Assembly (NCBI GenBank): GCA_036785375.1
Contig: JAWMAR010000531.1
Location: forward strand, 1,054,001 to 1,118,000
Source of the DNA: Leucoraja ocellata
Taxonomy: Eukaryota
Direction of reading: 5' to 3'
DNA length: 64,000 nucleotides
This document shows, in pieces, positions 13,263 to 55,509 of this stretch. The notes beneath the pieces are model-generated. The model saw only the letters and a program-made list of their open reading frames with translations. It did no database searches and had not been told where the DNA came from. The translations under genes and the position numbers were made by a program. How positions within the stretch are numbered: position 1 is the stretch's first letter; every line of letters starts with the position of its first letter.

Positions 13263-13311
13263 ATGTCTTGCTGGATGTCACTGGTTTGTGTGTTAGCATT
13301 TTCCGCAGCGT
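13263..13311 (+). CDS. IgL cluster 2 exon 1, leader (MSCWMSLVCVLAFSAA)
   Basis: ATG, hydrophobic 49-nt exon, donor GTGAGT. Confidence 0.85.
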
Positions 13312-13434
13312 GTGAGTATTTTACTTCCAATGTTATTTATTCTGGAGTGCGATTAAACGTTTAGATATCTGACACTTCTGCTGTTTCGCGAATATATTGA
13401 TAAATGTTGTATTTTTTTCTGGTTTGTTTTCCAG

Positions 13435-13779
13435 GCATAAATGCGCAAATTACACTAAATCAGCCGTCTTCAAAATCCACGTCTCCGGGGCAAAACGCGC
13501 TAATTTCCTGTATCTTGACTGGCGGCAGTTTAGGTAGTAATTATGTTTCCTGGCACCAACAGATTCCCGGAGCGGTTCCGCGGTTTCTGTTCTACTATAA
13601 CTCGGGCAACAGCATTGTTAGAGGTTCGGGAGTTTCTGACCGTTTCGCGGGATCAGTGTCAGGCAACACTGCAACATTGACAATAGCGAATGTGCAGTTG
13701 GGGGATGCTGCGGACTACTACTGTGCTGTGTGGATAAATGCTTTAATCTTCGGCAAAGGAACGAGGCTGGGTATTGGCG
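13435..13779 (+). CDS. IgL cluster 2 exon 2, germline-joined VJ
   Basis: TTTTCCAG acceptor; QITLNQP...C...WHQQ...DAADYYCAVWINALIFGKGTRL; donor GTAAGT. Confidence 0.93.
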
Positions 13780-14074
13780 GTAAGTAAACTATCTTCTACC
13801 TATGGGTTATTGATACTGCTGTGAAAAATAATTAGTTTTTTGTCGCTAATTGATGTTTCCAATAAAAGGCTTTTAAAGCTGATTTTTTAAATAATACCCG
13901 ACCTAGATCGAATCTCCTTTGGCAAATTGGTTGACAACAGCAATGAAAGGACGAAATGACTGTCCAGCTGTTTTTTTAATTCTTAATTACTATTCGGACG
14001 ATGAGCTAACATTGTCCAAGCCAGGGTACTAATAAAACCGACCGTATGGAAACGGGAATTAACATTAGAGTGAC

Positions 14075-14248
14075 AAGGAACTGCAGATGCTGATTTACAA
14101 CAAAAACACCCCAAAAAGCACTAGAGTGCCTCAGTGGGTCAGGCAGCATCTCTGGTGAACATAGATTGGCGACGACCCGAAACGCCTCATTCATCTTCTC
14201 CAGAGAAGCTCCCGAACCGCTAAGTTAATCCATCACGTTGTGCATCTT
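14075..14248. mobile_element. Head-to-head (inverted) pair of Penelope terminal-repeat fragments in the J-C intron, present in clusters 2-6
   Basis: GGTCAGGCAGCATCTCTGGTGAA (minus copy) faces TTCTCCAGAGAAGCTCCCGAACC (plus copy); junction at GACG/ACCCGAAACG. Confidence 0.6.
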
Positions 14249-14455
14249 TCGGGAAATTATTTCTTGCCTTTAATGGCGCCTAGAATTCTAATGGAAAACG
14301 CACCTTCAATAATAGCTCATTTTCTCTTGATATTCCATCACGAAATGTAAAATGTGGGGATTCTGCGGATCACTAGACCCTGATAGACTTTTCCCAACAT
14401 CGTGAACATGGAGAAATGTGGATTCTTGAAAATTATTGGTTCTCATCCAAGAATC

Positions 14456-14560
14456 GGCACGGTGGCGCAGCGGTTTAGCGCTGTAACCCAGTCGGTTCCA
14501 TCCCGACTACGGGTGCTGTCTGCACGGAGTTTGTTCGTTCTCCCCGTGACTGCATGTGGT
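14456..14560 (+). mobile_element. HE1-type tRNA-derived SINE 5' fragment in the J-C intron (also 24974, 35241, 45605, 56176)
   Basis: GGCACGGTGGCGCAGCGG (A-box), GGTTCCATCCC (B-box variant), GACTACGGGTGCTGTCTG..GGAGTTTG..CGTTCTCCCCGTGAC. Confidence 0.7.
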
Positions 14561-15716
14561 ACAAATAAATTAAATCCTATTTCGAGAGGACTAACTGCCA
14601 CATTTATCCTTGTCCTCTTTTATACTTTTAAAACTGCTTAAATATTGCTTGTATACTTTTTTTGTAAGTGCTGAAGAATGTCATGGCCAATATTTAGCCG
14701 GGATAAACATCGGACGCAAACAATAACGCGGTGCGAGGTTTAGTGCAGCGACATTGGATTTGAAATCATCCATCGTTATGAATCTATGTTGTTGTTTTTA
14801 ATTTTTTATGCTTTAAAATCTTTGTTTAATTGTATCACCCGGACATATTCAAAGTCAATGTATGCTGCCAATTTACTGCTAATGCGATATTGAATTCATT
14901 TCGTGATTTTGAAATTCCGGTACTTATGAGTTTTGTTGCCAGATCTAATTGTCATTACACTTAGAGCATGCGGATTCTGGAATCAATGGGACAGCGATTA
15001 TTTCAATTTTAGACGAAAAATAACTGAAAATGTGAAAGCAATTTGCGCATTGAATTTCCCAACCACATCAGTAATCAGCAAGTGATTAAAGTCGATTTAC
15101 TCTTTTTGCCATTGAGTGTACGGAGTGATATTCGATGATCAAATTCAGAAATTGAGCTAATTTTTTACTTCAAAAAGAAGACACAACATAAACGTAAACC
15201 ATGTCCAAAATCAATTAAAAAATGCGGGAACTAGTCTATGCATCGATGGGTTAAATGGCAAATTATTCGTGTCTCTTTTATCGAATCCTTCATGACACTT
15301 CGTTCTTTGGCCTTAATAAATGAAAGTATCCAAATAAGACATGTTTTAAGCGAGTTCAGTTGAAATTGGCACAATAGTTCCATAATTTATTAAATCCTGC
15401 AAATGGCTGTCGGGTCCAACACACGATTTTTATTTCAACTGGGGCCAATGGAAATAATACTCTGGAGATCAATTAAAAACACTGACGAAATAATTTATGT
15501 TTAACCACAAAATAGAACGTGTCCCGTTGTCATAAATACCAATTAATCTTCGGCGATCACACATGTAAAATATCTCACGTGCGCAATTGAACAATTTGAA
15601 ACAAGTAGAGGAAAAATGTTTATTCATTAAAATTAATGGATCCATGGTATTTTTAACTATGTTTTAACCGAAGCAGTTCTTCAACCTCCACTAATCTGTG
15701 ATATTATTTTAAACAG

Positions 15717-16039
15717 CACCTCGCGCCCCCGCAATGTCCGTCCTCGGACCTTCAGCGGAAGAAATCAAGGGAAAGGGCACGGCCACCCTGCTGTGTTTGG
15801 TGAGCGGGTTTAATCCGGGTGCAGTGGCCATTGAGTGGACCGTGGAGGGCAGTGCGAGAAGTGACGGCGTTGAGACCAGCCCAATCCAGCAGGAGAAGGA
15901 CAACACGTTCAGTGCGAGCAGTTACCTGACTCTGCCAGTCACAGTCTGGAACTCAAACGATCTTTACTCTTGTGTGGTTAAACACGAAACCCAGGCAATC
16001 CCGCTTAAGGCAGACATCACCAGAACCGGCTGTATCTAA
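15717..16039 (+). CDS. IgL cluster 2 exon 3, constant region
   Basis: TTTTAAACAG acceptor, phase 1; PRAPAMSVLGPS...ATLLCLVSGF...YSCVVKHE...TGCI stop; AATAAA at 16337. Confidence 0.93.
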
Positions 16040-16668
16040 AACTCCTCAATTCCACCTAATGGAGCTGAAGTGATATATTTTGATCCTTCTTTCTTTCTAT
16101 ATTTGTGAGAAATTGGTCTGGGCATATTGTTTGTTTTTCGACCAGTCTTTGCGTTTAAAATCGTCGTTTGTCTTGCCAATTGTGAACGCCATTAAAGCAA
16201 TCAAATTGTTAATTGAACCTCCTATGTTATTCAATCTCAGCTGATGCGTCTTTAAATATTCATTAATATTCAGTGGTCTGAAGGTTGTATTCTGGATGTT
16301 TGCTTACTGCTATCATAAATTCAAACACGACTGTCAAATAAAATCAATAGTCCATTATTAAGAGCAATACATTTCCGTGACTATTATTTATGGTTTTTGA
16401 CCTAATAGACGAAACAGCGATTTAGGTTGTCGAAAGTTATATAAAACCGGTGACTTTGAGTTGGTTCACTTTAACCAGCGCTCGCCCATAGGTAGCAGAA
16501 ACACACACACACACGTTCATATGGAATCTCATTCGAGTGAGGGCGGCTGAACATCATATACCGGCCTACTAATCAATTAGGAATCTATGTCGAACATGAT
16601 GCTAAAACTAAAGAAACATCTCCGACACCTCCCTCCCCTTTCCTGATCTCAATCTCTATCACAGGAGA

Positions 16669-17645
16669 GAGAATTATTTGGATGAGGGAATTGAATGCAA
16701 AATCTCCAAGTTTGCGGATGACACGAAGCTGGGGGGCAGTGTTAGCTGTGAGGAGGATGCTAGGAGGCTGCAAGGTGACTTGGATAGGTTGGGTGAGTGG
16801 GCAAATGCATGGCAGATGCAGTATAATGTGGATAAATGTGAGGTTATCCACTTTGGTGGCAAAACAGGAAAGTAAACTATTATCTGAATGGTGGCCGATT
16901 AGGAAAAGGGGAGATGCAACGAGATCTGGGTGTCATGGTACACCAGTCATTGAAAGTAGGAATACAGGTGCAGCAGGCAGCGAAGAAAGCAAATGGTATG
17001 TTAGCGTTCATAGCAAAAGGATTTGAGTATAAGAGCAGGGAGGTTCTACTGCAGTTGTACAGGGTCTTGGTGAGACCACACCTCGAGTATTGCGTACAGT
17101 CTTGGTCTCCTAATCTGAGGAAAGACATTCTTGCCATAGAGGGAGTACAGAGAAGGCTCACCAGACTAATTCCTGGGATGGCAGGACTTTCACATGAAGA
17201 AAGACTGGATAGACTCGGCTTGTACACGCTAGAATTTAGAAGATTGAGGGGGGATCTTATAGAAACTTACAAAATTCTTAAGGGGTTGGACAAGCATGAT
17301 GCAGGAAGATTATTCCCGATGTTGGAGAAGTCCAGAACTAGGGGTCACAGTTTAAGGATAAGAGGGAAGTATTTTAGGACCGAGATGAGAAAATCATTTT
17401 TTACACTGAGAGTGGTGAATCTGTGGAATTCTCTGCCACAAAAGGTAGTTGAGGCCAGTTCAATGGCTATATTGAGGGAGTTAGATGTGGCTCTTGTGGC
17501 TAAAGAGATCAGGGGGGTATGGAGAGAAGGCAGGGATGGGATACTGAGATGGATTATAAGCCATGATCATAATGAATGGCGGTGCAGGTTCGAAGGGCCG
17601 AATGGCCTACTCCTGCACCTATTTTCTATGCTTCTATGTTTCTAT
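16669..17645 (+). mobile_element. 5'-truncated CR1 LINE (CR1-A) inserted into a Penelope fragment
   Basis: SKFADDTKLGG...VRPHLEYC...RRLRGDLIETYKI; (TTCTATG)n tail; flanked by GAGA; empty site at 58480. Confidence 0.88.
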
Positions 17646-18320
17646 GAGATAGACCACCGACTGACGTGTATTACAAACCCACTGACTCCCATAACTATCT
17701 CGGCTACACTACTTCCCACCCGGCTTCCTGCAAAGACTATCCCTCACTCCCAATTCGTCCGTCTGCACCGCATCTGCGCACAAGGTGAGGTGTTCCATAC
17801 ATGGACATCCGAGATGTCCTCATTCTTTAGTGAACGGGGGTCCCCTTCCCCATCATAGATGATGCCCTCACCCGTGTCTCCTCAGTACCCGCAGCTCCGC
17901 CCTTGTTCCCCTTCCCCCCAGTCGCAACAGAGACAGAGTTCCCCTGGTCCTTAAATTTGACCCCATCAGACGTCGCATACACCACATAATCCTCCAATAT
18001 TTTCGCCACCTCCAATGGGATCCCGACACTAGTCACATCTTTCCATGTCCACCCTTTTCCGCCTTCCACAGAGATCCTCAGCAACTCCCTGGGTAACTCA
18101 TTCCTTCCCATCCAAATCACCGTCTCCTCCATTGGCAGAGTGAGGCGAAATGCAAATTGGAGGAACAGCATCTCATATTCGCTGGGCAGCCTACAGCCAA
18201 GTGGAATGAATGTTGATTTAAGTAACATCAAGTAATCCTGACATTCCCTCTCTCTCTATCCCTCCCCCACCCAAGTCACACCAGCTCCTCGTCTTCACCC
18301 AATGATCAGCTAACAACGGG
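17646..18320 (+). mobile_element. Penelope-like fragment with internal GIY-YIG deletion (its 5' stub is at ~16615-16668); repeated in each internal spacer
   Basis: GACTGACGT.TATTACAAACCCACTGACTCC and GGAGGAACAGCATCTCATATT match the element at 8790-10094. Confidence 0.8.
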
Positions 18321-18427
18321 GTTAAGAAGGAGAGACAAATCAACCATGATTGAATGGTGGGTTGAAGATGGGTCGTGGCGTAATTCTACTATTCCTTACG
18401 ACCTTATGACCTTATCACTGGTCCGCG

Positions 18428-19556
18428 CGGTAGGGATTAACGGGCCCCTTTCAGGCTGGCAGGAAGTGACGAGTGGGGTGCCGCGAGGCTCGGTGCTGGG
18501 ACCGCAGCTATTTACAATATATGTTAATGATTTAGATGGAGGGATTAAAAGTAACATTAGCAAATTGCAGATGATACAAAGCTGGGTGGCGGTGTAAAAT
18601 GTGAAGTGGATGTTCTGAGAATGCATGCGGTTTAATGTGAATAAATGTGAGGTTACCCAATTAGGTAGCAAGAACAGAAAGTAAGATTATTATGTAAATG
18701 GTGTCAATTTGGGAAAAGGGGAAGTACTACGGGATCTGGGGATCTTTGTTCATCAATCAATGAAAGCAAGCAAGTCTGAAGAAGGGGTTCGGCCCGAAAC
18801 GTTGCCTATTTCCTTCGCTCCATAGATGCTGCTGCACCCGCTGAGTTTCTCCAGCTTTTTTGTGTAACCAATGAAAGCAAGCATGCAGGTACAGAAGGCA
18901 GTGAAGGAAGCGAATGGCATGGTGGCCTTCATAACAAGAGGAGTTGAGTAAAAGAGCAAAGATTTCCTTCTGCAGTTGTACAAGGCTGTAGTGAGACCAC
19001 ACCTGGAGGATTGTGTGCAGGTTTGATCTTCAAATTTGAGGAAGCACATTCTTGCTATTGAGGGTGTGCCGCGTAGGTTCACAAGGTTAATTCCAGGGAT
19101 GGCGCGACTGTCATTTGCTGAGAGAATGGAGCGGCTGGGCTTGTCTACTCTGGAATTTAAAGGATGAGAGGGGATCTTATTGAGACATATAGGATTATTA
19201 AGGGTTTGCACACGCTAGAGGCAGGAAATATGTTCCCGATGTTGGGGGAGTCCAGAACCAGGGGCCACAGTTTAAGAATAAGGGGTAAGCAATTTAGAAC
19301 GGAGATGGGGAAACACTTTTTCACACTGAGAGTTGCGAGTCTGTGGAATTCTCTGCCTCAGGTGGAGGCCGCTTCTCTGGAAACTTTCAAGAAATTGCTC
19401 GATAGGGCTTTTGAAGATAGCGGAGTCAGGGGGGATATGGGGAGAAGGCAGAAACAGGGTACTGATTGTGGATGATCATCCATGATCACATTGAATGGCC
19501 GTGCTGGCTTGAAGGGCCGTGTGGCCTACGCCTGCACCTATTGTCTATTGTCTATT
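18428..19556 (+). mobile_element. 5'-truncated CR1 LINE (CR1-B)
   Basis: VTSGVPRGSVLGPQLFTIYVNDLD, MRGDLIETYRII; (CTATTGT)n tail. Confidence 0.85.
18773..18868 (+). mobile_element. 96-bp Penelope-derived insertion with a minimal hammerhead motif and a 15-bp target-site duplication
   Basis: CAATGAAAGCAAGCA at 18758-18772 and 18869-18883; absent from the paralogous sites at ~29341, ~39483, ~49909. Confidence 0.85.
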
Positions 19557-22380
19557 ACACAGCCATGCCTATCGCTAACTAGCTCATTCTCCTTCAAATG
19601 GGAGTAAATCTCAATGAATTATCTCCAATAGTTTCCTACCACTGACGTGCGTCTCTCCGGCCTCTATTTCCCTGGATTCTTTCTACGTCTCAATCAACAA
19701 AGGAACAACTGGTCATTTCCCAGTCCTCTATATGCTCGCCTCTGGCAAGAGAAGAAGCAAATATTCTCAAGACCCCTGGAATCACCTCTCGCCTCCCTCA
19801 ATAAACTGGGATAGATACCAACGGGTGCAGGGGACCTATCCAACTCAATGTTCCTCAAAAGCCTCACTGCCGCTCTTTTCAACCTCAAGCCCCAGCATAT
19901 GTGCCCTAGCATATTAGTTTTCTCCACACTGATCTCACCGTCATCCACGTCTTTCTCCTTGGTGAATACAGATGCAGAACGCACTCGTTTAACAATTCCG
20001 CTACATCCTTTATCCTTGATCAGACCTACCGTATCCTTACACCCTTCTTGTTTTTTAACATATGTATAAAAATCCGCAGTATTTTCCTTAACTCAACAAA
20101 TCAGTTACATTTCGTGACCAGTTTGGCCCGACTAATCACCCAGTTGAGCTCTTTGCTACTCATCATTCCTCATAATCCCCGTATGATGGCACTTTGTTAA
20201 ATCTGACATACGCTTCCGTTTTGTTTCTGAAAAGGTGGATAACCTCCGTGGTCATTCACGGATCCCTTACCATGCCATCGTTATCCATCCTCCTTACTGG
20301 AACGTGCTGATCCTGTACTTGGTTAAATAACTCCCATATATTAGTTGTGGACATACTCAATAACAACTGCAACCAAGCTCCTGCCTAATGACATCTTAAT
20401 CTGTTTTGCTTCTGCCAACATCCACACCAAATCTTTATTCAAACCTTATTCAAAACCTTGTAATGTTGAGGTCACTATCCCCAAGTGCTCTTCCAGCATA
20501 CCACCAGTCACGTAGCCAAGCACATTTCCCAACACAAGCTCCAGTATCGTCCCTCCTGGATTCAGACTATCCATACACCGTTTAAAGCAAATTTATTGGA
20601 TATACTTCATAAATTCTGTCTCATTTAACCCCCTTGCACTGAACAAAATACAGTCAATACTGGGGAAGTTAACGATACCCACTACAGCAACACTGTAGTC
20701 CATGCATCTGTATGCATATCCGATCCATCTATTAGATTCGATTAGATTAGATTAGACCTAATCTAATAGATGGACGGATGGATCTCCCGCTGATTATTGG
20801 GTGTCCCATAATATAATCCCATTAGAGAGACTGGTCCTTTCTTATTTTTAAGCACAACCCACATGTCTCAATAGATGTACCCTCCAGTACGTCCCCTCTG
20901 AGTTCCGCCATCCCAAATATCGAAGCCCTGATACATGTCTCTCCCATAAGAAGGTTTTCATAATGGCCACGACATTATTATTCCAAGCACTGATATCGAC
21001 TATCTACGTTCATTTAACTTCATCCACAATACTCCTTGCATTGAAGTAAACATGTCATCCCTTAATTGCCCCATAATCATGAACCAATCCCTGCCCATCT
21101 TTCCTTTGAGACTTACTTGTTATAACCTCCACTTTCCCATCATCCTTCCCACTTGCAGACTTGCTCCTTTCCTTCCCATTCTTTGTCCATTGTAGCTTAA
21201 ATTCTCCAGGTTAGTACAAGCAACCTTCACTGAAAAGATTTTGGAGCCCCTTCAGTTCAAATGCAACGTGTCCCTCTTGTGCAGGTTGCCTTTGCGATAA
21301 CAGAAATCTCAATGGTCTACAATTCGAATCATTTCCCCTGCACCAACCCCTCAGCCATGCATTCATCTGTCCCATCCTCCTATTGCTACACTCAATAACA
21401 CGTGGCGACTGTAGTAATCTAGAGATGGTAATTTAAACCTTTTAGCTAATTCCCATTAGACACTCCGCAGGACCTCATTGCTCTTCGGTACATTTTGCTG
21501 ATCTACTTATATTCACCCCAGAGGACCCCATCCATTTTCCTAACTCTTTTCCCATCTCTTTATACTGACTCTATAGGACCTCATCCAGTTTCCTACATAT
21601 CATTTGTGCGGACATGCACAACGACTTCTGTCTGTTCACCCACCAGGTCGAAAATGCTCTGCAGTCGTTCCAGGACATTCTAGATCCTTGCACCAGAGAG
21701 GCAACAGTCCGTCCATGAGGCCTACTTGCTCCTGTCTGTCCCCCGCACTAATGTGGTTTATCACAATCACTGCCTGACTTCACACCGCTGCACATCAGAG
21801 ACAGGCCCAGTGCCGCAGACCTGACTACTGCTGCTGTCCCCTGAACGGTTACCCCCTCAACTGAAGCAAACGAACATAGCTGTTTTGCAGGGGGAAGCCT
21901 ACAGGGGACTCCTGGACCCTCTGCCTACTCCCTTTGCTGCTGATCACTCTTCTATTCTTTGTCCGCACCACACGTGTGAGCACCTCACTATGACTTCTAA
22001 CTATGACTTGCTCACTCTCTGGACGAACACGAGGTCATCCAATTGGAACTGCAGATCACTAACAGGGTCTTTCAGGAGCTGCTCCTCGACACACCTCCTG
22101 CAGATGTAATGTTCAGAGACGCTACGTCTTCTTCAGTTCCAACATCCCACAGGCTGAGCACACTAGCCTCCATCTCTATGACACCAAGACCAGGTTGTGT
22201 TGCAAAGCAAACATAAAGTGACAGAACAAACCGTATCCTAAGATAACCCTCACAGGAGCCTCTTGAGCTTAAGCCTCAATAAACCAATCTTACTATATAT
22301 GGCCGCTCCATTAATGTTTACCTTCATTTTATTTGCAATAGTTATTTAGCCAAATAACCAAGTGTGACACTTGCCTGCAA
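19557..22380 (-). mobile_element. Decayed CR1 LINE (CR1-C), 5' part: UTR, ORF1 esterase, APE and start of RT
   Basis: Minus strand has PGN.RP...TSVVG-like (~19635-19680), ASVFTKEKD, VVVHV.TND (~21595-21625); many stops. Confidence 0.75.
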
Positions 22381-23790
22381 ATAACGATAGAGAAGGTGAA
22401 CCAATATTCAAATAAGCATAACTCTGTCCGTTTGTAATGCAATGTAATTGCAATGTATTTAGTATACGCAAACAGTGTCTTCGTAATTCATTGTTACTTG
22501 CAGCGAGTGAACATATAGAATGTGGCAAGTGTCAAATAAAGCGGATTATTTTGCTGTGAATTAAGTTCAATTACTTGATTGCTGTCGGAGCTGCACACAT
22601 CTAGGTAAACTGAAAGCATTTCAGAAATACTAAGCAGTATTAAAAAAAATCGGAAACAAAGCTTGAGACATTGATGCCTCTGCTTGGCTTGTTTACAAGT
22701 CACCGATCTGAGGACTTTATAGTTTTCACTGTACGGGCACATTCGTGGAAAGGACCGCTCTCTTTTGATTGATTGTCAGCCGAATTGTAAGAGTCCAAAT
22801 AAGAAAATGCTGATATTTATCTGTTCTTTAGGCAGTAGTTTCTTGTTGATATGCTTTAGCATTGATTCACACGGTGCTGTAGCAATCCACAATATGAAAA
22901 GAGGCTTTCGCTATAAATAGAGCGATTGGTTCGCAGTAAGAAATGTGCGCGCGTCATATCAAGCAACGCTGTTCACATCTAAATATAATTCCATATATCG
23001 AATGAAGGTTGACAGAATCAATACCATGGCAATCCAAACACCTACAGACTCACTTCACCTTTTTATCGGATAAAGCTACCTTGGCGATGAAATATATTTT
23101 TCAATTCCTTCTCAATTTCACGAGCAATGTCAGTGAACCTGAACTAACCTTGGGTGCTACGAGCAAACATGGTTTCCAAAAATAACTCAAAACTCTTTGC
23201 ATTGGTTTTGACAGTGACTTGCGTAAATGGCACAGTGAGATCAGATTAATCAGCACTGAAAACGATAAATTACCTCCATGAATATTATTTATTGTAACAC
23301 ACACTCTCTGCAACCACACAGAAAATGATTCAAACTAAATGCAAACCCAGAATTGAATGTCCCGTTTCAAATAACACAAAATCTCCAGTTGTAGGAAGGA
23401 ACTGCAGATGCTGGTTTACACCGAAGATAAGCACACATTGCTGGATTTAAGATGGAATAGGTGACGTTTCGGGTAGCGACCCTTCTTCATACTGAGAGTC
23501 ACGGGAGAGGGAAACTAGAGATATCAAAACAGAATATCTAACGTGCATGGAAATATATTAAATTGTACCGAGATACATAATTGGAAACTAAATCCTTATC
23601 TGCCTAACATTTCGGAAATAATTTGACATAGGAACAATCTGGCAACATTTGATTGGCGCAGCGTCCATTCTGATTTGAGTGTTTTGCATAATTATGGAAG
23701 GCAGTGACGCCTCGCAACAGGGTTCATAAGCGACCTGGAGAGACACCTGATCAACCACTTCATCTGGCGCCCTCCACCAAAATAATTACA

Positions 23791-23839
23791 ATGTCTTGCT
23801 GGATGTCACTGGTTTGTGCGTTAGCATTTTCCGCAGCAT
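23791..23839 (+). CDS. IgL cluster 3 exon 1, leader
   Basis: MSCWMSLVCALAFSAA + GTGAGT donor. Confidence 0.85.
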
Positions 23840-23963
23840 GTGAGTATTTTGCTTCCAAAGTTATTTATTCTGGAGTGCGATTAAACGTTTAGATAGCTGA
23901 CACTTCTGCTGTTTCGCTAATATCTTGGTTAATGTTGTACTTTTTTTTTGGTTTGTTTTCCAG

Positions 23964-24308
23964 GCATAAATGCGCAAATTACACTAAATCAGCCGCCTTC
24001 AAAATCCACGTCTCCGGGGCAAAACGCGCTAATTTCCTGTATCTTGACTGGCGGCAGTTTAGGTAGTTATTATGTTTCCTGGTACCAGCAGATTCCCGGA
24101 GCGGTTCCGCGGTTTCTGTTCTACTATAACTCGGGCAACAGCATTGTTAGAGGTTCGGGAGTTTCTGACCGTTTCGCGGGATCAGTGTCAGGCAACACTG
24201 CAACATTGACAATAGCGAATGTGCAGTTGGGGGACGCTGCGGACTACTACTGTGTTGTGTGGATAAATGCTTTCATCTTCGGCAAAGGAACGAGGCTGGG
24301 TATTGGCG
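23964..24308 (+). CDS. IgL cluster 3 exon 2, germline-joined VJ
   Basis: Intact V domain ending YYCVVWINAFIFGKGTRL; canonical splice sites. Confidence 0.93.
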
Positions 24309-26236
24309 GTAAGTAAACTATCTTCTACCTATGGGTTATTGATACTGCTGTGAAAAATAATTAGTTTTTTGTCGCTAATTGATGTTTCCAATTAAAGGCT
24401 TTTAAAGCTGATTTTTTAAATAATACGCGAGCAAGATCGAATCTCCTTTGGCAAATTGGTTGACAACAGCAATGAAAGGACGAAATGACTGTCCAGCTGT
24501 TTTTTTTACTCTTAATTACTTTTCGGACGATGAGCTAATATTGACCAAGCCAGGGTACTAATAAACCGACCGTATGGAAACGGGAATTAACATTAGAGTG
24601 ACAAGGAACTGTAGATGCTGATTTGCAAAATAAAACCCCCCAAAAAAGCAGAGGAGTGCCTCAGTGGGTCAGGCAGCATCTCTGGTGAACATAGATTGGC
24701 GATGACCCGAAACGCCTCATTCATCTTCTCCAGAGAAGCTCCCGAATCCATCACGTTGTGCATCTTTCGGGAAATTATTTCTTGCCTTTAATGGCGCCTA
24801 GAATTCTAATGGAAAACGCACCTTCAATAATAGCTCATTTTCTGTTGATATTCCATCACGAAATGTAAAATGTGGGGATTCTGCGGATCACTAGACCATG
24901 ATAGACTTTTCCCAAAATCGTGAACATGGAGAAATGTGGATTCTTGAAAATTATTGGTTCTCATCCAAAAATCGGCACGGTGGCGCAGCGGTTTAGCGCT
25001 GTAACCCAGTCGGTTCCATCCCGACTACGGGTGCTGTCCGCACGGAGTTTGTTCGTTCTCCCCGTGACTGCATGTGGTACAAATAAATTAAATCCTATTT
25101 CGAGAGGACTAACTGCCACATTTATCCTTGTCCTCTTTTATACTTTTAAAACTGCTTAAATATTGCTAGTATACTTTTTTTGTAAGAGCTGAAGATTGTC
25201 ATGGCCAATATTTAGCCGGGATAAACATCGGACGCAAACAATAACGCGGTGCGAGGTGTAGTGCAGCGACATTGGATTTGAAATCATCCATCGTTATGAA
25301 TCTATGGTGTTGTTTTTAATTTTTATGCTTTAAAATCTTTGCTTAATTGTATCTCCCGGACATATTCAAAGTCAATGTCTGCTGCCAATGATTTACTGCT
25401 AATGCGATATTGAATTCATTTCGTGATTTTGAAATTCCGGTACTTATGAGTTTTGTTGCCAGATGTAATTGTCATTACACTTAGAGCATGCGGATTCTGG
25501 AATCAATGGGACAGCGATTATTTCAATTTTACACGAAAAATAACTGAAAATGTGAAAGCAATTTGCGCATTGAATTTCCCAACCATATCAGTAATCAGCA
25601 AGTGATTACAGTCGATTTACTCTTTTTGCCATTGAGTGTACGGAGTGAGATTCGATGATCAAATTCAGAAATTGAGCTAATTTTTTACTTCAAAAAGAAG
25701 ACACAACATAAACGTAAACCATGTCCAAAATCAATTAAAATATGCGGGAACTAGTCTATGCATCGATGGGTTAAATGGCAAATTATTCGTGTCTCTTTTA
25801 TCGAATCCTTCATGACACTTCGTTCTTTGGCCTTAATAAATGAAAGTATCCAAATAAGACATGTTTTAAGCGAGTTCAGTTGAAATTGGCACAATAGTTC
25901 CATAATTTATTAAATCCTGCAAATGGCTGTCGGGTCCAACACACGATTTTTAGTTCAACTGGGGCCAATGGAAATAATACTCTGGAGATCAATTAAAAAC
26001 ACTGACGAAATCATTTATGTTTAACCACAAAATAGAACGTATCCCATTGTCATAAATACCAATTTATCTTCGGCGATCACACATGTAAAATATCTCACGT
26101 GCGCAATTGAACAATTTGAAACAAGTAGAGGAAAAATGTTTATTCATTAAAATGAATGGATCCATGGTATTTTTAATTATGTTTTAACCAAAGCAGTTCT
26201 TCAACCTCCACTAATCTGTGATATTATTTTAAACAG

Positions 26237-26559
26237 CACCTCGCGCCCCCGCAATGTCCGTCCTCGGACCTTCAGCGGAAGAAATCAAGGGAAAGGGCAC
26301 GGCCACCCTGCTGTGTTTGGTGAGCGGGTTTAATCCGGGTGCAGTGGACATTGAGTGGACCGTGGAAGGCAGTACGAGAAGTGACGGCGTTGAGACCAGC
26401 CCAATCCAGCAGGAGAAGGACAACACGTTCAGTGCGAGCAGTTACCTGACTCTGCCAGTCACAGTCTGGAACTCAAACAATCTTTACTCTTGTGTGGTTA
26501 AACACGAAACCCAGGCAATCCCGTTTGAGGCAGACATCACCAGAACCGGCTGTATCTAA
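26237..26559 (+). CDS. IgL cluster 3 exon 3, constant region
   Basis: Intact C1-set domain, TGCI stop; AATAAA at 26862. Confidence 0.93.
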
Positions 26560-34060: not shown

Positions 34061-34109
34061 ATGTCTTGCTGGATGTCACTGGTTTGTGTGTTAGCATTGT
34101 CCGCAGCGT
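34061..34109 (+). CDS. IgL cluster 4 exon 1, leader
   Basis: MSCWMSLVCVLALSAA + GTGAGT donor. Confidence 0.85.
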
Positions 34110-34232
34110 GTGAGTATTTTACTTCCAATGTTATTTATTCTGGAGTGCGATTAAACGTTTAGATATCTGACACTTCTGCTGTTTCGCTAATATATTGGTA
34201 AATGTTGTATTTTTTTCTGGTTTGTTTTCCAG

Positions 34233-34577
34233 GCATAAATGCGCAAATTACACTAAATCAGCCATCTTCAAAATCCACGTCTCCGGGGCAAAACGCGCTA
34301 ATTTCCTGTATCTTGACTGGCGGCAGTTTAGGTAATAGTTATGTTTCCTGGTACCAGCAGATTCCCGGAGCGGTTCCGCGGTTTCTGTTCTACTATGACT
34401 CGGACAACAGCATTACTAGAGGTTCGGGAGTTTCTGACCGTTTCGCGGGATCAGTGTCAGGCAACACTGCAACATTGACAATAGCGAATGTGCAGTTGGG
34501 GGACGCTGCGGACTACTACTGTGCTGTGTGGAAAAATGCTTTAATCTTCGGCAAAGGAACGAGGCTGGGTATTGGCA
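34233..34577 (+). CDS. IgL cluster 4 exon 2, germline-joined VJ
   Basis: Intact V domain ending YYCAVWKNALIFGKGTRL; canonical splice sites. Confidence 0.93.
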
Positions 34578-36502
34578 GTAAGTAAACTATTTTCTACCTA
34601 TGGTTTATTGATACTGCTGTGAAAAATAATTAGTGTCGCTGATTGATGTTTCCAATAAAAAGCTTTTAAAGCCGATGTTTTTAACAATACCCGACCAAGA
34701 TCGAATATCCTTCGGCAAATTGGTTGACAACAGCAATGAATGGACGAAATGAATGTCCAGCTGTTTTTTTAATTCTTAATTACTATTCGGACGATGAGCT
34801 AACATTGACCAAGCCAGGGTACTAATAAAACCGACCGTATGGAAACGGGAATTAACGTTAGAGTGACAAGGAACTGCAGATGCTGATTTACAACAACAAA
34901 AAACACCCTAAAAAGCACTAGAGTGCCTCAGTGGTTCAGGCAGCATCTCTGGTGAACATAGATTGGTGACGACCCGAAACGCCTCATCCGTCTTCTCCAG
35001 AGAAGCTCCCGAATCCATCACGTTGTGCATCTTTCGGGAAATTATTTCTTGCCTTTAATGGCGCCTAGAATTCTAAAGGAAAACGCACCTTCAATAATAG
35101 CTCATTTTCTGTTGATATTCCATCACGAAATGTAAAATGTGGGGAATCTGCGGATCACTAGACCATGATAGACTTTTCCCAACATCGTGAACATGGAGAA
35201 ATGTGGATTCTTGAAAATTATTGGTTCTCATCCAAAAATCGGCACGGTGGCGCAGCGGTTTAGCGCTGTAACCCAGTCGGTTCCATCCCGACTACGGGTG
35301 CTGTCTGCACGGAGTTTGTTCGTTTTCCCCGTGACTGCATGTGGTACAAATAAATTAAATCCTATTTCGAGAGGACTAACTGCCACATTTATCCTTGTCC
35401 TCTTTTATACCTGTAAAACTGTTTGAATATTGCTAGTATACATTTTTTGTAAGTGCTGAAGATTGTCATGGTCAATATTTAGCCGGGATAAACATCGGAC
35501 GCAAACAATAACGCGGTGCGAGGTTTAGTGCAGCGACATTGGATTTGAAATCATCCATCGTTATGAATCTATGTTTTTGTTTTTAATTTTTATGCTTTAA
35601 AATCTTTGCTTAATTGTGTCACCCGGACATATTCAAAGTCAATGTCTGCTGCCTATGATTTACTGCTAATGCGATATTGAATTCATTTCGTGATTTTGAA
35701 ATTCCGGTACTTATGGGTTTTGTTGCCAGATGCAATTGTCATTACACTTAGAGCATGCGGATTCTGGAATCAATGGGACAGCGTTTATTACAATTTTACA
35801 CGAAAAATAACTGAAAATGTGAAAGCAATTTGCGCATTGAATTTCCCAACCATATCAGTAATCAGCAAGTGATTATAGTCGATTTACTCTTTTTGCCATT
35901 GAATGTACGGAGTGAGATTCGATGATCAAATTCAGAAATTGAGCTAATTTTTTACTTCAAAAAGAAATCACAACATAAACGTAAACCATGTCCAAAATCA
36001 ATTAAAAAATGCGGGAACTAGTCTATGCATCGATGGGTTAAATGCAAATTATTCGTGTCTCTTTTATCGAATCCTTCATGACACTTCGTTCTTTGGCCTT
36101 AATAAATGAAAGTATCCAAATAAGACATGTTTTAAGCGAGTTCAGTTGAAATTGGCACAATAGTTCCATAATTTATTAAATCCTGCAAATGGCTGTCAGG
36201 TCCAACACACGATTTTTATTTCAACTGGGGCCAATGGAAATAATACTCTGGAGATCAATTAAAAACACTGACGAAATAATTTATGTTTAACCACAAAATA
36301 GAACGTGTCCCATTGTCATAAATACCAATTAATCTTCGGCGATCACACATGAAAAATATCTCACGTGCGCAATTGAACAATTTGAAACAAGTAGAGGAAA
36401 AATGTTTATTCATTAAAATGAATGGATCCATGGTATTTTTAACTATGTTTTAACCGAAGCAGTTCTTCAACATCCACTAATCTGTGATATTATTTTAAAC
36501 AG

Positions 36503-36825
36503 CACCTCGCGCCCCCGCAATGTCCGTCCTCGGACCTTCAGCGGAAGAAATCAAGGGAAAGGGCACGGCCACCCTGGTGTGTTTGGTGAGCGGGTTTAAT
36601 CCGGGTGCAGTGGACATTGAGTGGACCGTGGAGGGCAGTGCGAGAAGTGACGGCGTTGAGACCAGCCCAATCCAGCAGGAGAAGGACAACACGTTCAGTG
36701 CGAGCAGTTACCTGACTCTGCCAGTCACTGTCTGGAACTCAAACAATCTTTACTCTTGTGTGGTTAAACATGAAACCCAGGCAATCCCGTTTGAGGCAGA
36801 CATCACCAGAACCGGCTGTATCTAA
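36503..36825 (+). CDS. IgL cluster 4 exon 3, constant region
   Basis: Intact C1-set domain; AATAAA at 37128. Confidence 0.93.
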
Positions 36826-44421: not shown

Positions 44422-44470
44422 ATGTCTTGCTGGATGTCACTGGTTTGTGCGTTAGCATTTTCCGCAGCAT
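44422..44470 (+). CDS. IgL cluster 5 exon 1, leader
   Basis: MSCWMSLVCALAFSAA + GTGAGT donor. Confidence 0.85.
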
Positions 44471-44594
44471 GTGAGTATTTTGCTTCCAACGTTATTTATT
44501 CTGGAGTGCGATTAAACGTTTAGATAGCTGACACTTCTGCTGTTTCGCTAATATCTTGGTTAATGTTGTACTTTTTTTCTGGTTTGTTTTCCAG

Positions 44595-44939
44595 GCATAA
44601 ATGCGCAAATTACACTAAATCAGCCGCCTTCAAAATCCACGTCTCCGGGGCAAAACGCGCTAATTTCCTGTATCTTGACTGGCGGCAGTTTAAGTACCAA
44701 CACTGTTTCCTGGTACCAGCAGATTCCCGGAGCGGTACCGCGGTTTCTGTTCTACTATTACTCGGGCGGCAGCATTGTTAGAGGTTCGGGAGTTTCTGAC
44801 CGTTTCGCGGGATCAGTGTCAGGCAACACTGCAACATTGACAATAGCGAATGTGCAGTTGGGGGACGCAGCGGACTACTACTGTGCTGTGTGGATAAATG
44901 CTTTCATCTTCGGCAAAGGAACGAGGCTGGGTATTGGCG
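44595..44939 (+). CDS. IgL cluster 5 exon 2, germline-joined VJ
   Basis: Frame is open from the acceptor at 44594 through YYCAVWINAFIFGKGTRL to the GTAAGT donor. Confidence 0.93.
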
Positions 44940-46867
44940 GTAAGTAAACTATCTTCTACCTATGGGTTATTGATACTGCTGTGAGAAATAATTAGTTTTT
45001 TTTTTGCTAATTGATGTTTCCAATAAAAGGCTTTTAAAGCTGATTTTTTAAATAATACCCGACCAAGATCGAATCTCCTTTGGCAAATTGGTTGACAACA
45101 GCAATGAATGGACGAAATGACTGTCCAGCTTTTTTTTTAATTCTTAATTACTATTCGGACGATGAGCTAACATTGTCCAAGCCAGGGTACTAATAAAACC
45201 GACCGTATGGAAACGGGAATTAACATTAGAGTGACAAGGAACTGCAGATGCTGATTTACAACAAAAACACCCCAAAAAGCACTAGAGTGCCTCAGTGGGT
45301 CAGGCAGCATCTCTGGTGAACATAGATTGGCGATGACCCGAAACGCCTCATTCATCTTCTCCAGAGAAGCTCCCGAATCCATCACGTTGTGCATCTTTCG
45401 GGAAATTATTTCTTGCCTTTAATGGCGCCTAGAATTCTAATGGAAAACGCACCTTCAATAATAGCTAATTTTCTGTTGATATTCCATCACGAAATGTGAA
45501 ATGTTGGGATTCTGCGGATCACTAGACCATGATAGACTTTTCCCAACATCGTGAACATGGAGAAATGTGGATTCTTGAAAATTATTGGTTCTCATCCAAA
45601 AATCGGCACGGTGGCGCAGCGGTTTAGCGCTGTAACCCAGTCGGTTCCATCCCGACTACGGGTGCTGTCTGCACGGAGTTTGTTCGTTCTCCCCGTGACT
45701 GCATGCGGTACAAATAAATTAAATCCTATTTCGAGAGGACTAACTGCCACGTTTATCCTTGTCCTCTTTTTTTACTTTTAAAACTTGTTAAATATTGCTA
45801 GTATACTTTTTTTGTAAGAGCTGAAGATTGTCATGGTCAATATTTAGCCGGGATAAACATCGGACGCAAACAATAACGCGGTGCGAGGTTTAGTGCAGCG
45901 ACATTGGATTTGAAATCGTCCATCGTTATGAATCTATGTTTTTGTTTTTAATTTTTATGCTTTAAAATATTTGCTTAATTGTATCTCCCGGACATATTCA
46001 AAGTCAATGTCTGCTGCCAATGATTTACTGCTAATGCGATATTGAATTCATTTCGTGATTTTGAAATTCCGGTACTTATGAGTTTTGTTGCCAGATGTAA
46101 TTGTCATTACACTTAGAGCATGCGGATTCTGGAATCAATGGGACAGCGTTTATTTCAATTTTAGACGAAAAATAACTGAAAATGTGAAAGCAATTTGCGC
46201 ATTGAATTTCCCAACCATATCAGTAATCAGCAATTGATTACAGTCGATTTACTCTTTTTGCCATTGAGTGTACGGAGTGAGATTCGATGATCAAATTCAG
46301 AAATTGAGCTAATTTTTTACTTCAAAAAGAAGACACAACATAAACGTAAACCATGTCCAAAATCAATTAAAAAAATGCGGGAACTAGTCTATGCATCGAT
46401 GGGTTAAATGGCAAATTATTCGTGTCTCTTTTATCGAATCCTTCATGACACTTCGTTCTTTGGCCTTAATAAATGAAAGTATCCAAATAAGACATGTTTT
46501 AAGCGAGTTCAGTTGAAATTGGCACAATAGTTCCATAATTTATTAAATCCTGCAAATAGCTGTCGGGTCCAACACACGATTTTTATTTTAACTGGGCCAA
46601 TGGAAATAATACTCTGGAGATCAATTAAAAACACTGACGAAATAATTTATGTTTAACCACAAAATAGAACGTGTCCCATTGTCATAAATACCAATTAATC
46701 TTCGGAGATCACACCTGGAAATGATCTCACGTGCGCATTTGAACAATTTGAAACAATAGAGGAAAAATGTTTATTCATTAAAATGAATGGATCCATGGTA
46801 TTTTTAATTATGTTTTAACCGAAGCAGTTCTTCAACCTCCACTAATCTGTGATATTATTTTAAACAG

Positions 46868-47190
46868 CACCTCGCGCCCCCGCAATGTCCGTCCTCGGAC
46901 CTTCAGCGGAAGAAATCAAGGGAAAGGGCACGGCCACCCTGGTGTGTTTGGTGAGCGGGTTTAATCCGGGTGCAGTGGACATTGAGTGGACCGTGGAGGG
47001 CAGTGCGAGAAGTGACGGCGTTGAGACCAGCCCAATCCAGCAGGAGAAGGACAACACGTTCAGTGCGAGCAGTTACCTGACTCTGCCAGTCACAGTCTGG
47101 AACTCAAACAATCTTTACTCTTGTGTGGTTAAACACGAAACCCAGGCAATCCCGTTTGAGGCAGACATCACCAGAACCGGCTGTATCTAA
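46868..47190 (+). CDS. IgL cluster 5 exon 3, constant region
   Basis: Intact C1-set domain; AATAAA at 47492. Confidence 0.93.
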
Positions 47191-49529: not shown

Positions 49530-50600
49530 CCGCGCGGTAGGGATTAACGGGCCCCTTTCAGGCTGGCAGGAAGTGACGAGTGGGGTGCCGCGAGGCTCGG
49601 TGCTGGGACCGCAGCTATTTACAACATATGGTAATGATTTAGATGGAGGGATTAAAAGTAACATTAGCAAATTGCAGATGATACAAAGCTGGGTGGCAGT
49701 GTGAAATGTGAAGTGGATGTTCTGAGAATGCAGCGTGACGTGGCCAGGTTGGGTGAGTGGGCAGATGCATGGCAGATGCGGTTTAATGTGAATAAATGTG
49801 AGGTTACCCAATTAGGTAGCAAAAACAGAAAGAAAGATTATTATCTAAATGGTGTCAATTTGGGAAAAGGGGAAGTACTACGGGATCTGGGGGTCTTTGT
49901 TCATCAATCAATGAAAGCAAGCATGCAGGTACAGAAGGCAGTGAAGGAAGCGAATGGCATGGTGGCCTTCATAATAAGAGGAGTTGAGTGAAGGAGCAAA
50001 GATTTCCTTCTGCAGTTGTAGAAGGCTGTAGTGAGACCACACCTGGAGGATTGTGTGCAGTTTTGATCTTCAAATTTGAGGAAGGACATTCTTGTTATTG
50101 AGGGAGTGCAGCGTAGGCTCACAAGGTTATTCCAGGATGGCGCGACTGTCATCTGCTGAGAGAATGGAGCGGCTGGGCTTGTCTACTCTGGAATTTAGAA
50201 GGATGAGAGGGGATCTTATTGACACATATAGGATTATTAAGGGTTTGCACACGCTAGAGGTAGGAAATATGTTCCCGAAGTTGGGGGAGTCCAGAATCAG
50301 GGGCCACAGTTTAAGAATAAGGGGTAAGCAATTTAGAACGGAGATGGGGAAACACTTTTTCACACTGAGAGTTGCGAGTCTGTGGAATTCTCTGCCTCAG
50401 AGGGCGGTGGAGGCCGGTTCTCTGGAAACTTTCAAGAAATTGCTCGATAGGGCTCTTGAAAATAGCGGAGTCAGGGGGATATGGGGAGAAGGCAGGAACA
50501 GGGTACTGATTGTGGATGATCATCCATAATTACATTGAATGGCCGTGCTGGCTTGAAGGGCCGTGTGGCCTACTCCTGCACCTATTGTCTATTGTCTATT
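49530..50600 (+). mobile_element. CR1-B copy
   Basis: Paralog of 18428-19556. Confidence 0.85.
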
Positions 50601-53434: not shown

Positions 53435-54992
53435 AATAACGATATAGAAGGTGAACCAATATTCAAATAAGCATAACTCTGTCCGTTTGTAATGCAATGT
53501 AATTGCAATGTATTTAGTATACGCAAACAGTGTCTTCGTAATTCATTGTTACTTGCAGCGAGTGAACATATAGAATGTGGCAAGTGTCAAATAAAGCGGA
53601 TTATTTTGCTGTAAATTAAGTTCAATTACTTGATTGCTGTCGGAGCTGCACACATCTAGGTAAGCTGAAAGCATTTCAGAAATACTAAGCAGTATTAAAA
53701 AAAAATCGGAAACAAAGCTTGAGACATTGATGCCTCTGCTTGGCTTGTTTACAAGTCACCGATCTGAGGACTTTATAGGGCACTGTACGGGCACATTCGT
53801 GGAAAGGACCGCTCTCTTTTGATTAATTGTCAAATAAGTCCAGAGTCCAAATAAGAAAATGCTGATATTTTTCTGTTTAGGCTGTATTTTCTTGTTGATA
53901 TGCTTTAGCATTGATTCACACGGTGCTGTAGCAATCCACAATATGAAAAGAGGCTTTCGCTATAAATAGAGCGATTGGTTCGCAGTAAGAAATGTGCGCG
54001 CGTCATATCAAGCAACGCTGTTCACATCTAAATATGATTCCATATATCGAATGAAGGTTGACAGAATTCATACCATGGCAATCCAAACACCTACAGACTC
54101 ACTTCACCTTTTTAACGGATAAAGCTACCTTGGCGATGAAATATATTTCTCAATTTCCTTCTCAATTTCACGAGCAATGTCAATTGAACCTGAACTAACC
54201 TTGGGTGCTACGAGCAAACATGGTTTCCAAAAATAACTCAAAAATCTTTGCATTGGTTTTGACAGTGACTTGCATAGACAGTAAGTTGGCCAGAATTGGC
54301 ACCGAGATTTAAAAAATCATAAATAATTTGCAGTCAATTGTAAATTCGCTTTCAAACATCTCTTAGTCGCTATCTTCATCATAATATTCGCCAGTATCAA
54401 ATACAATGTGCAATCCCGCGCAGTAGGATGGCACAGTGAGATCAGATTAATCAGTACTGGATATGATGAGTTACCTCCATGAATATAATTTATTTTAACA
54501 CACACTCTCTGCAACCACACAGAAAATGATTCAAACTAAATGCAAAACCAGAATTGAATGTACCGTTTCAAATAACAAAAATTCTCCAGTTGTAGGAAGG
54601 AACTGCAGATGCTGGTCTACACCGAAGATAACCACACCTTTGCTGGATTTAAGATGGAATAGGTGACGTTTCGGGTAGCGACCCTTCTCCATACTGAGAG
54701 TCACGGGAGAGGGAAACTAGAGATATCAAAACAGAATATCTTACGTGCTTGGAAATATATTAAATTGTACCGAGATACATAATTGGAAACTAAATCCTTA
54801 TCTACCTGACATTTTGGAAATAATTTGACACAGGAACAATCTGGCAACATTTGATTGGCGCAGCGTCCATTCTGATTAGAGTGTTTTGCATAATTAATGA
54901 AGGCAGTGACGCCTCGCAACAGGGTTCATAAGCGACCTGGAGAGACGCCTGATCAACCACTTCATCTGGCGCCCTCCACCAAAATAATTACA

Positions 54993-55041
54993 ATGTCTTG
55001 CTGGATGTCACTGGTTTGTGTGTTAGCATGTTCCGCAGCGT
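54993..55041 (+). CDS. IgL cluster 6 exon 1, leader
   Basis: MSCWMSLVCVLACSAA + GTGAGT donor. Confidence 0.85.
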
Positions 55042-55164
55042 GTGAGTATTTTACTTCCAAAGTTATTTAATCTGGAGTGCGATTAAAAGTTTAGATATCT
55101 GACACTTCTACTGTTTCGCTAATATCTTGGTTAATGTTGTACTTTTTTCTGGTTTGTTTTCCAG

Positions 55165-55509
55165 GCATAAATGCGCAAGTTGCACTAAATCAGCCGTCTT
55201 CAAAATCCACGTCTCTGGGGCAAAACGTGCAAATATCCTGTATCATGACTGGTGGCAGTTTAAGTACCTACACTGTTTCCTGGTACCAGCAGATTCCCGG
55301 AGCGGTTCCGCGGTTTCTGTTCTACTATTCCGCGGGCAGCAGCATTACTAGAGGTTCGGGAGTTTCTGACCGTTTCGCAGGATCAGTGTCAGGCAACACC
55401 ATAACATTGACAATAGCGAATGTGCAGTCTGGGGACGCTGCGGACTATTACTGTGGTGTGTGGCTAAATCCTTTCATCTTCGGCAAAGGAACGAGGCTGG
55501 GTATTGGCG
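55165..55509 (+). CDS. IgL cluster 6 exon 2, germline-joined VJ (most divergent of copies 2-6)
   Basis: QVALNQP...YYCGVWLNPFIFGKGTRL; canonical splice sites. Confidence 0.93.

What the first reader, a model, noticed from the sequence alone, without database searches (positions are those of the whole stretch)
13435..55509. Germline V copies differ by CDR-focused, contiguous 2-3 nt substitutions resembling shark somatic hypermutation
Seen, relative to copy 2: GT>CC (44697-98), TTA>CAC (44701-03), AA>GG (44768-69), GT>AC (34415-16), TGC>CAT (55400-02), TG>CT (55429-30). Most differences are nonsynonymous and lie in CDR1 (GSNY/GSYY/GNSY/STNT/STYT), CDR2 (NSGN/DSDN/YSGG/SAGS) and CDR3, while frameworks and C exons barely change. 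Established: contiguous substitutions are a hallmark of somatic hypermutation in shark Ig light chains. Inference: pre-joined genes may be diversified heritably by an AID-like process in the germline, or by micro-conversion from other clusters plus positive selection. Caveat: a few tandem changes also occur in the spacers (e.g. ~18220).
Basis: partly seen in the sequence, partly recalled or inferred. Interest (0 to 1): 0.72.

Follow-up and report, generated by a model that had tools for sequence, protein, structure and literature searches.

The report
Skate antibody genes swap binding loops
Five neighbouring, ready-joined antibody light-chain genes of a skate differ mostly in their antigen-binding loops, most likely because selection favours new loops and the copies trade short stretches of DNA, not because the shark antibody mutator acts in eggs or sperm, so this is likely an ordinary case of a known process.

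Summary
The window holds five ~10.4-kb tandem units of a skate (Rajidae) lambda-type light-chain gene with V and J fused in the germline, part of a larger array seen on two haplotype-like contigs. All six listed tracts are real. Against copy 2, 21 of 41 CDR differences lie in runs, against 60 of 598 in spacers. The hypermutation reading fails its own tests. Every tract recurs in another copy, three of six break fully into single changes, and two lie in framework 3. Among changes private to one copy, 8 of 109 in V are tandem against 109 of 1752 in spacers (p=0.68), far below the 38-51% of shark hypermutation. Simulations fit about 1-4% tandem events and reject 10% or more. AID hotspot bias in neutral sites is 1.4 (0.98-1.99), not 4.3. 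CDR dN/dS is about 2, and copy 4 carries a copy-5-type CDR1 patch. A small leftover excess of double changes leaves room for a minor mutator share. The scan noted selection or conversion in other skate Ig-fold families (unchecked).

The parts
643..3687 (+). Diverged lambda-type VJ-C gene (copy A0): leader 643-691, joined VJ about 820-1155, C 3365-3687; about 70% DNA identity in V to copies 1-5; not used in the statistics
13263..16039 (+). Copy 1 (A1): leader 13263-13311, germline-joined VJ exon 13435-13779, C exon 15717-16039
23791..26559 (+).
   Evidence: both splice joints seen in contigs of one run that is RNA by guess
34061..36825 (+). Copy 3 (A3): leader 34061-34109, VJ 34233-34577, C 36503-36825
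44422..47190 (+). Copy 4 (A4): leader 44422-44470, VJ 44595-44939, C 46868-47190
54993..57761 (+). Copy 5 (A5): leader 54993-55041, VJ 55165-55509, C 57439-57761; most diverged V of the five, near-identical to B3 on the other contig (4 single-base differences)
44693..44703 (+).
44768..44769 (+). AA>GG in CDR2 of copy 4: two single changes from the common AGC codon (AGC>AAC, AGC>GGC); GGC also in A6, A7
34415..34416 (+). GT/AC (Val/Thr) in CDR2: no intermediate among 16 copies; ACT in 5, GTT in 4 copies; Val at this site also in Amblyraja proteins, so likely one old event
55400..55402 (+). TGC>CAT in framework 3 of copy 5: a silent T>C plus a GC>AT core (Ala/Ile) shared by A5, B3, A6, A7 with no intermediate seen
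55429..55430 (+). TG>CT in framework 3 of copy 5: two single steps via TCG (present in 6 copies); TCT also in B3, A8, B5
16500..22500 (.). Spacer of one unit, rich in broken reverse-transcriptase-type (LINE-like; label from recall) fragments; spacers served as the neutral control

Best explanation
These are tandem, germline-joined lambda-type light-chain genes of a skate whose binding loops likely diverge by ordinary point mutation under positive selection and are likely shuffled between copies by short gene conversion and unequal crossing-over. Shown: the VJ exons are fused without recombination signals, the differences concentrate at about a dozen CDR codons with dN/dS above 1, the same multi-base tracts recur in several copies and in related genera, and neighbouring sites are inherited in patches. 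Inferred: repeated single changes pile up in the same selected codons, so a pairwise comparison with one reference copy shows them as 2-3-base runs; conversion then moves such a run in one step (copy 4 CDR1). A few true two-base mutations (about 1-4% of events, near the spacer background) are included and were likely kept because they change a loop residue. Because these genes cannot make junctional diversity, germline loop diversity plus somatic mutation in B cells would supply the light-chain repertoire.
For: Tracts shared and decomposable; among 16 copies only 3 adjacent pairs in CDRs lack an intermediate, for 56 changes. Private changes: V 8 of 109 tandem, the eight closest copies 0 of 22, spacers 109 of 1752, p=0.68; against shark hypermutation 73 of 192 (FR) and 41 of 81 (CDR), p<1e-6 each (benchmark from PMC5931798 passages). 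Four closest gene pairs: 2 of 16 V differences adjacent. Pooled simulations: 15 irreducible pairs observed; 11 expected at 1% tandem events, 16 at 3%, 33 at 10%, 54 at the shark level. dN/dS of the five window copies: CDR 2.04, FR 0.40, C 0.54; 10 of 12 codons with P(omega>1)>0.9 lie in the 32 CDR codons of 112, p=5e-5. Patchy inheritance: neighbour incompatibility 0.205 against 0.398, 0 of 5000 permutations; copy 4 switches from 17 copy-2-type sites to 7 copy-5-type sites and back. Mosaic CDR/framework combinations in Leucoraja proteins and in a DNA contig of another run. Silent private changes in V 9.3 per 1000 against 7.5 in spacers, p=0.21.
Against: Without any tandem mutation, simulations reach the pooled 15 pairs in only 2-3% of runs, so some true double changes are needed. 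A codon model gives 6.3% within-codon doubles in the window's families (LRT 7.0, p=0.004), 3.2% and 2.1% in two other families, against 0-0.8% in distal spacers and 1.2-4.2% near V; only 1 of 13 simulations with 1.5% background plus conversion reached 6.3%. Irreducible-pair excess per change: CDR 5.2%, FR 3.9%, near flanks 3.1%, far spacers 1.3%. Pairwise silent divergence in V (0.06-0.07) is about twice spacer divergence (0.026) in the window copies. Irreducible pairs are not confined to codon positions 1-2 (9, 7, 3 by phase). Donors of conversion are inferred, not observed.
Confidence: 0.82

Rival explanations
1. Selection and conversion dominate, but a small share (roughly a tenth or less) of V changes comes from a leaky AID-like or error-prone-polymerase process acting on these ready-joined, promoter-bearing genes in germ cells or early embryos.
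For: Gradient of double changes V > near flanks > far spacers; G:C hotspot ratio 2.5 in CDR private changes, p=0.04 uncorrected; neutral transcribed window odds ratio 1.39 (0.98-1.99); raised pairwise silent divergence in V. A 2026 preprint argues for AID/APOBEC germline mutagenesis of histone genes (10.64898/2026.06.11.731563, abstract only).
Against: With CpG sites removed no hotspot ratio differs from spacers (p 0.14-0.61), and the promoter (1.46) and C exon (2.0) score as high. The near-V excess of private tandem changes comes from one family (14 of 21) whose intron holds a high-copy repeat insertion. Non-adjacent doubles (codon positions 1+3, 6.1%) are as frequent as adjacent ones in the window's families, whereas tandem-mutation simulations give at most 0.5% (3 of 3). 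The fourth family shows no excess.
Confidence: 0.1
2. The V genes are diversified mainly by shark-type somatic hypermutation acting heritably in the germline.
For: Pairwise run fractions against copy 2 (CDR 51%, FR 32%) happen to match the shark somatic values of 50.6% and 38% (PMC5931798 passages); RAG acts in shark germ cells (PMC2193156 passages).
Against: Private tandem share 7%; 0 of 60 simulations at 10% or 20.5% tandem events as low as observed; codon-model fraction 2-6% against 11-22% in 9 of 9 shark-level simulations; hotspot ratio upper bound 2.0 against 4.3; tracts shared across copies and genera.
Confidence: 0.02
3. The differences are somatic mutations or assembly errors of the sequenced animal, not inherited variation.
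For: Three related genes elsewhere in the array carry 1-bp frameshifts and two have identical V exons, which may be assembly faults.
Against: The tracts recur on a second haplotype-like contig (A5/B3), as variant bases in DNA contigs of other runs and as the same residues in Leucoraja and Amblyraja reference proteins.
Confidence: 0.01
4. Conversion alone, without positive selection, produces the CDR focus (loops merely tolerate imported patches).
For: Strong patchiness; recombination can inflate dN/dS site tests (established knowledge).
Against: Private CDR changes are 47 replacement to 10 silent and nearly twice as dense as in spacers (13.8 against 7.5 per 1000), while silent rates are not raised; pairwise CDR dN/dS is about 2 in three of four families (1.03 in the fourth).
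Confidence: 0.05

Closest known systems
Germline-joined lambda (type II / NS3) light-chain clusters of cartilaginous fishes
   Same: One fused VJ exon plus one C exon per cluster, no recombination signals; C domain 65-66% identical to sandbar shark lambda chains; a review states all lambda genes studied are germline-joined (PMC4279169 passages).
   Different: The window's V family is only 46-53% identical to the sandbar shark lambda V and has a longer CDR2; a second family on the same contigs is 61-71% identical. Here the clusters stand in a tight 10-15 kb tandem array.
Skate type I (sigma-2) germline-joined light chains, Anderson et al. 1995 (PMC2192082, abstract only)
   Same: Germline-joined genes whose differences fall preferentially in CDRs with replacement over silent changes: the same pattern, already in print for the little skate.
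   Different: Other isotype; the abstract does not address tandem changes or conversion (the body is not held, so it may).
Shark somatic hypermutation with tandem substitutions (nurse shark Ig and TCR-alpha; PMC5931798 passages)
   Same: CDR focus and a superficially equal share of adjacent differences in pairwise comparison.
   Different: Somatic; 38-51% of mutated bases tandem and 4.3-fold G:C hotspot bias, against 7% and about 1.4-fold here.
Multigene-family evolution by interlocus gene conversion plus diversifying selection (MHC, germline Ig V; recalled)
   Same: Patchwork alleles, shared motifs among paralogs, divergence peak at the selected exon, copy-number difference between haplotypes.
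   Different: Nothing essential; here it acts on whole pre-joined VJ exons including CDR3.

Membership tests
Germline-joined lambda (type II) light chain of cartilaginous fishes | Leader, V-J and C exons in one cluster, V and J fused in frame with no recombination signal | tested here: met
   Open VJ frames with FGKG motif and splice donor; no signal near any V or J at up to 3 mismatches (consensus recalled)
Germline-joined lambda (type II) light chain of cartilaginous fishes | C domain groups with lambda rather than kappa, sigma or sigma-2 | tested here: inconclusive
   65-66% identity to sandbar shark lambda C and nearly all named hits are lambda, but most names are automatic and no tree with kappa/sigma references was built
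Germline-joined lambda (type II) light chain of cartilaginous fishes | Transcribed and spliced leader-VJ-C | tested here: inconclusive
   Both joints in contigs of 1 of 4 runs laid, that run being RNA by guess
Shark-type AID hypermutation | About 40-50% of new substitutions in runs of 2-4 bases, in frameworks as well as CDRs | tested here: not met
   8 of 109 private V changes; FR 2 of 52; simulations
Shark-type AID hypermutation | G:C changes about 4-fold enriched at DGYW/WRCH | tested here: not met
   Neutral sites of the transcribed V window: odds ratio 1.19 (0.87-1.64) for variable columns, 1.39 (0.98-1.99) for private changes
Shark-type AID hypermutation | Raised silent and intronic mutation load from the leader intron into the J-C intron, not in promoter or C | tested here: inconclusive
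   Private silent rate not raised; private intronic rate 8.5 against 7.5 per 1000; pairwise silent divergence in V is about 2-fold raised, which older coalescence also explains
Shark-type AID hypermutation | AID expressed in the cells that mutate (here germ cells) | not testable with these tools
   No purified germ-cell data examined
Interlocus gene conversion | Runs of sites shared with a paralog inside a background of another ancestry | tested here: met
   Copy 4 patch; neighbour-incompatibility test 0 of 5000
Diversifying selection on antigen-binding loops | dN/dS above 1 in CDRs and below 1 in frameworks | tested here: met
   CDR 1.9-2.2 in three families, 1.03 in one; FR 0.41-0.60; site classes

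The most novel reading that the evidence does not exclude
Ready-joined skate light-chain genes are open to a weak AID-like or error-prone-polymerase mutator in the germline, which supplies a few percent of their heritable changes as two-base substitutions that selection then keeps in the loops: a leak of the antibody mutator into inheritance, parallel to the known leak of RAG.
Probability: 0.08. Interest if true: 0.75.

Novelty: new member of a known kind. Interest (0 to 1): 0.2.

Why it matters
As it stands it is a clear, quantified example of how a fish that cannot rearrange these light chains keeps their loops diverse in the germline (selection plus conversion, with copy-number variation between haplotypes), and a warning that pairwise comparison with one reference copy can mimic the shark hypermutation signature almost exactly (51% and 32% against 51% and 38%). 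If a germline mutator share were real, it would show the antibody mutator changing inherited DNA in a targeted way, a long-debated idea; these arrays make that testable by pedigree or sperm sequencing.

Tried and rejected
Recombination signal scan: one chance-level hit, none beside V or J. Within-family same-pattern pair counts looked strongly in favour of tandem mutation (CDR 4 against 1.0 and 7 against 0.9) but shrank to 3 pairs once all 16 related copies were compared. RNA reads for a somatic spectrum: no RNA holder listed; three raw RNA runs gave almost no exon coverage and mostly repeat-derived reads, so nothing on somatic mutation. Raised diversity in the first 500 bp of the J-C intron of the second family (0.079) was considered as an AID window and set aside: it coincides with a repeat insertion and block-like sharing, and the other three families show 0.032-0.043. 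Hotspot signal in CDRs (p=0.04) vanished against spacers after CpG removal. Solved-structure search gave only mammalian or engineered antibodies among the 60 shown of 978. The protein tree of V domains misplaced two distant genes and was used only to define families. Look-alike earlier findings in other genomes: none. No structure or complex prediction was run, as none bears on the question.

Full report
Anatomy. Self-comparison shows five units of about 10.4 kb, 93-98% identical, plus one diverged gene at 643-3687. Each unit holds a leader exon, one open V-J exon ending in a splice donor, and a C exon; no recombination signal lies near V or J. Nearest named proteins are lambda-like light chains of the skates Amblyraja, Leucoraja and Rhinoraja; the C domain is 65-66% identical to sandbar shark lambda. 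The own genome holds four more close copies downstream (A6-A9) and seven on contig C384 (B1-B7), which is collinear at 96-98% and likely the other haplotype. Further joined families lie on these and two small contigs.

Observation. These figures are close to nurse shark TCR-alpha somatic mutation, 41 of 81 in CDRs and 73 of 192 in frameworks (PMC5931798, passages). Two of the six tracts are in framework 3 and none is in CDR3.

Are the runs single events? With 16 copies aligned, GT>CC passes through ACT (A6, A7), AA>GG splits into two changes from AGC, and TG>CT passes through TCG. TTA>CAC and TGC>CAT keep a two-base core without an intermediate, and GT/AC has none. Each tract recurs in other copies (3 to 6 carriers; the full TGC>CAT only in A5 and its likely allele B3). 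Matching loop motifs (STYT, NSD, Val or Thr in CDR2) stand in Amblyraja and Leucoraja proteins, so many are old. In copy 4, sites that separate copy 2 from copy 5 read copy-2-type 17 times, then copy-5-type 7 times from 44693, then copy-2-type again; over 127 informative sites neighbouring sites are far more compatible than shuffled ones (0.205 against 0.398, 0 of 5000). A contig of another DNA run joins a copy-5-type framework 1 to the copy-4-type CDR1. This is the signature of conversion or unequal exchange; direction and donor are inferred.

Youngest changes. I used 45 of the 60 V loci fetched, in four families (8, 7, 18, 12 genes); left out were B7, A0, two diverged members, two frameshifted genes and one duplicate of the third family, a five-gene family and three distant genes. 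Changes private to one copy: V 8 of 109 tandem (CDR 6 of 57, FR 2 of 52; the window's family 0 of 22), distal spacers 109 of 1752 (p=0.68), promoter 6 of 138, C 0 of 50; each V class differs from the shark values at p<1e-6. Leader intron plus proximal J-C intron gave 21 of 198 (p=0.024 against spacers), 14 of them in one family whose intron holds a repeat insertion. About 2% of human de novo changes are clustered (PMC6633265, abstract start in listing), the order seen in the spacers.

Calibration. Sequences were simulated on each family tree with fitted selection, with or without conversion, at set tandem rates, 60 runs each. Pooled irreducible adjacent pairs: observed 15; expected 8-9 at 0%, 11 at 1%, 16 at 3%, 21-23 at 5%, 32-34 at 10%, 54-55 at the shark level of 20.5% of events (derived). 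No run at 10% or more was as low as observed; zero tandem mutation is also unlikely (2-3%). The simulations give too many private changes (about 155 against 99), so the bounds are approximate.

Evidence against my reading. A codon model with a double-change rate gave 6.3% in the window's two families (p=0.004; 6.9% with B7), 3.2% (p=0.053) and 2.1% (p=0.19) in the others, against 0-0.8% in far spacers and 1.2-4.2% near V. Shark-level simulations gave 11-22% (9 of 9); no tandem and no conversion gave about 0 (8 of 8); heavy conversion alone gave about 5% in 2 of 8; 1.5% background with 20 short conversions gave 0-6.6%, 1 of 13 reaching the observed value (that conversion load was not calibrated). 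The signal rests on five or six codons, and non-adjacent doubles are as common as adjacent ones, which tandem mutation did not produce. Multi-hit support is common in codon data in general (61% of alignments; PMC7954308, passages). Pairwise silent divergence in V is about twice that of spacers, though private silent changes are not raised (33 in 3566 sites, 9.3 against 7.5 per 1000, p=0.21), which fits older ancestry kept by selection.

Hotspots. Private G:C changes in CDRs favour DGYW/WRCH 2.5-fold (12 of 684 against 9 of 1284, p=0.04), but selected codons there are themselves hotspot-rich. With CpG removed, neutral sites of the transcribed V window give 1.39 (0.98-1.99) against 1.11 in spacers (p=0.26), with promoter 1.46 and C 2.0; the shark value is 4.3.

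Selection. Five window copies: dN/dS 2.04 in CDRs, 0.40 in frameworks, 0.54 in C. Ten of 12 codons with omega above 1 lie in CDRs. Private CDR changes are 47 replacement to 10 silent. Recombination can inflate such tests, but the private counts do not depend on a tree.

Known context. All lambda genes studied in cartilaginous fishes are germline-joined (PMC4279169, passages). CDR-focused, replacement-biased differences among skate germline-joined genes were reported in 1995 (PMC2192082, abstract only). RAG joining in shark germ cells is documented (PMC2193156, passages). Isotype names follow PMC5985310 (passages). Searches listed no paper on tandem changes among germline skate lambda genes or on germline AID at shark Ig loci; the library lacks most subscription journals, including the original shark light-chain hypermutation paper, which I know only through PMC5931798. 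A preprint on AID/APOBEC germline mutation of histone genes (abstract only) keeps the minor-share idea open. No supplements were read.

Verdict. Real pattern, ordinary cause: selection plus conversion (0.82); minor mutator share 0.08-0.10; shark-type germline hypermutation as the main source about 0.02. Interest 0.2.

Noticed in passing
G000 C531 (window and L031-L036) against C384 (L037-L047): The two haplotype-like contigs differ in copy number: 5 + 4 copies on C531, 3 + 3 + 1 on C384, consistent with unequal crossing-over.
   Followed up: partly
window 13435-55509 and L061-L078: At least two deep lambda-type V lineages lie on the same contigs: a long-CDR2 family (window type; relatives in horn shark, catshark and ratfish proteins) and a short-CDR2 family 61-71% identical to sandbar shark lambda. 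I did not check whether the long-CDR2 family has been described.
   Followed up: partly
window 24135 and protein P0028: A 6-nt in-frame deletion in CDR2 appears in a DNA contig of another run and a Leucoraja protein seems two residues shorter there; CDR2 length also varies by one codon in two other families.
   Followed up: no
L010 (B5), L058, L059, L077, L007 (B3): B5 has an in-frame stop in framework 1; three other genes have 1-bp frameshifts; B3 reads VGKG instead of FGKG: likely pseudogenes or assembly errors.
   Followed up: no
window 531, 13154, 23682, 33952, 54884 and upstream of 44422: Octamer-like promoter motif (consensus recalled): perfect before the diverged gene, one mismatch before copies 1, 2, 3, 5, and a different variant before copy 4.
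   Followed up: no
window 24620-24710 and 25010-25070: High-copy short repeat fragments in the J-C intron attract thousands of RNA reads; the second family has a further insertion just after J.
   Followed up: partly
L053 and L055 (C384): Two genes 62 kb apart have identical V exons: very recent duplication, conversion or assembly duplication.
   Followed up: no
C384 about 804146-804345: A 200-N gap sits where the partner of the window's diverged V exon (820-1155) would lie, so its absence on C384 is not informative.
   Followed up: yes
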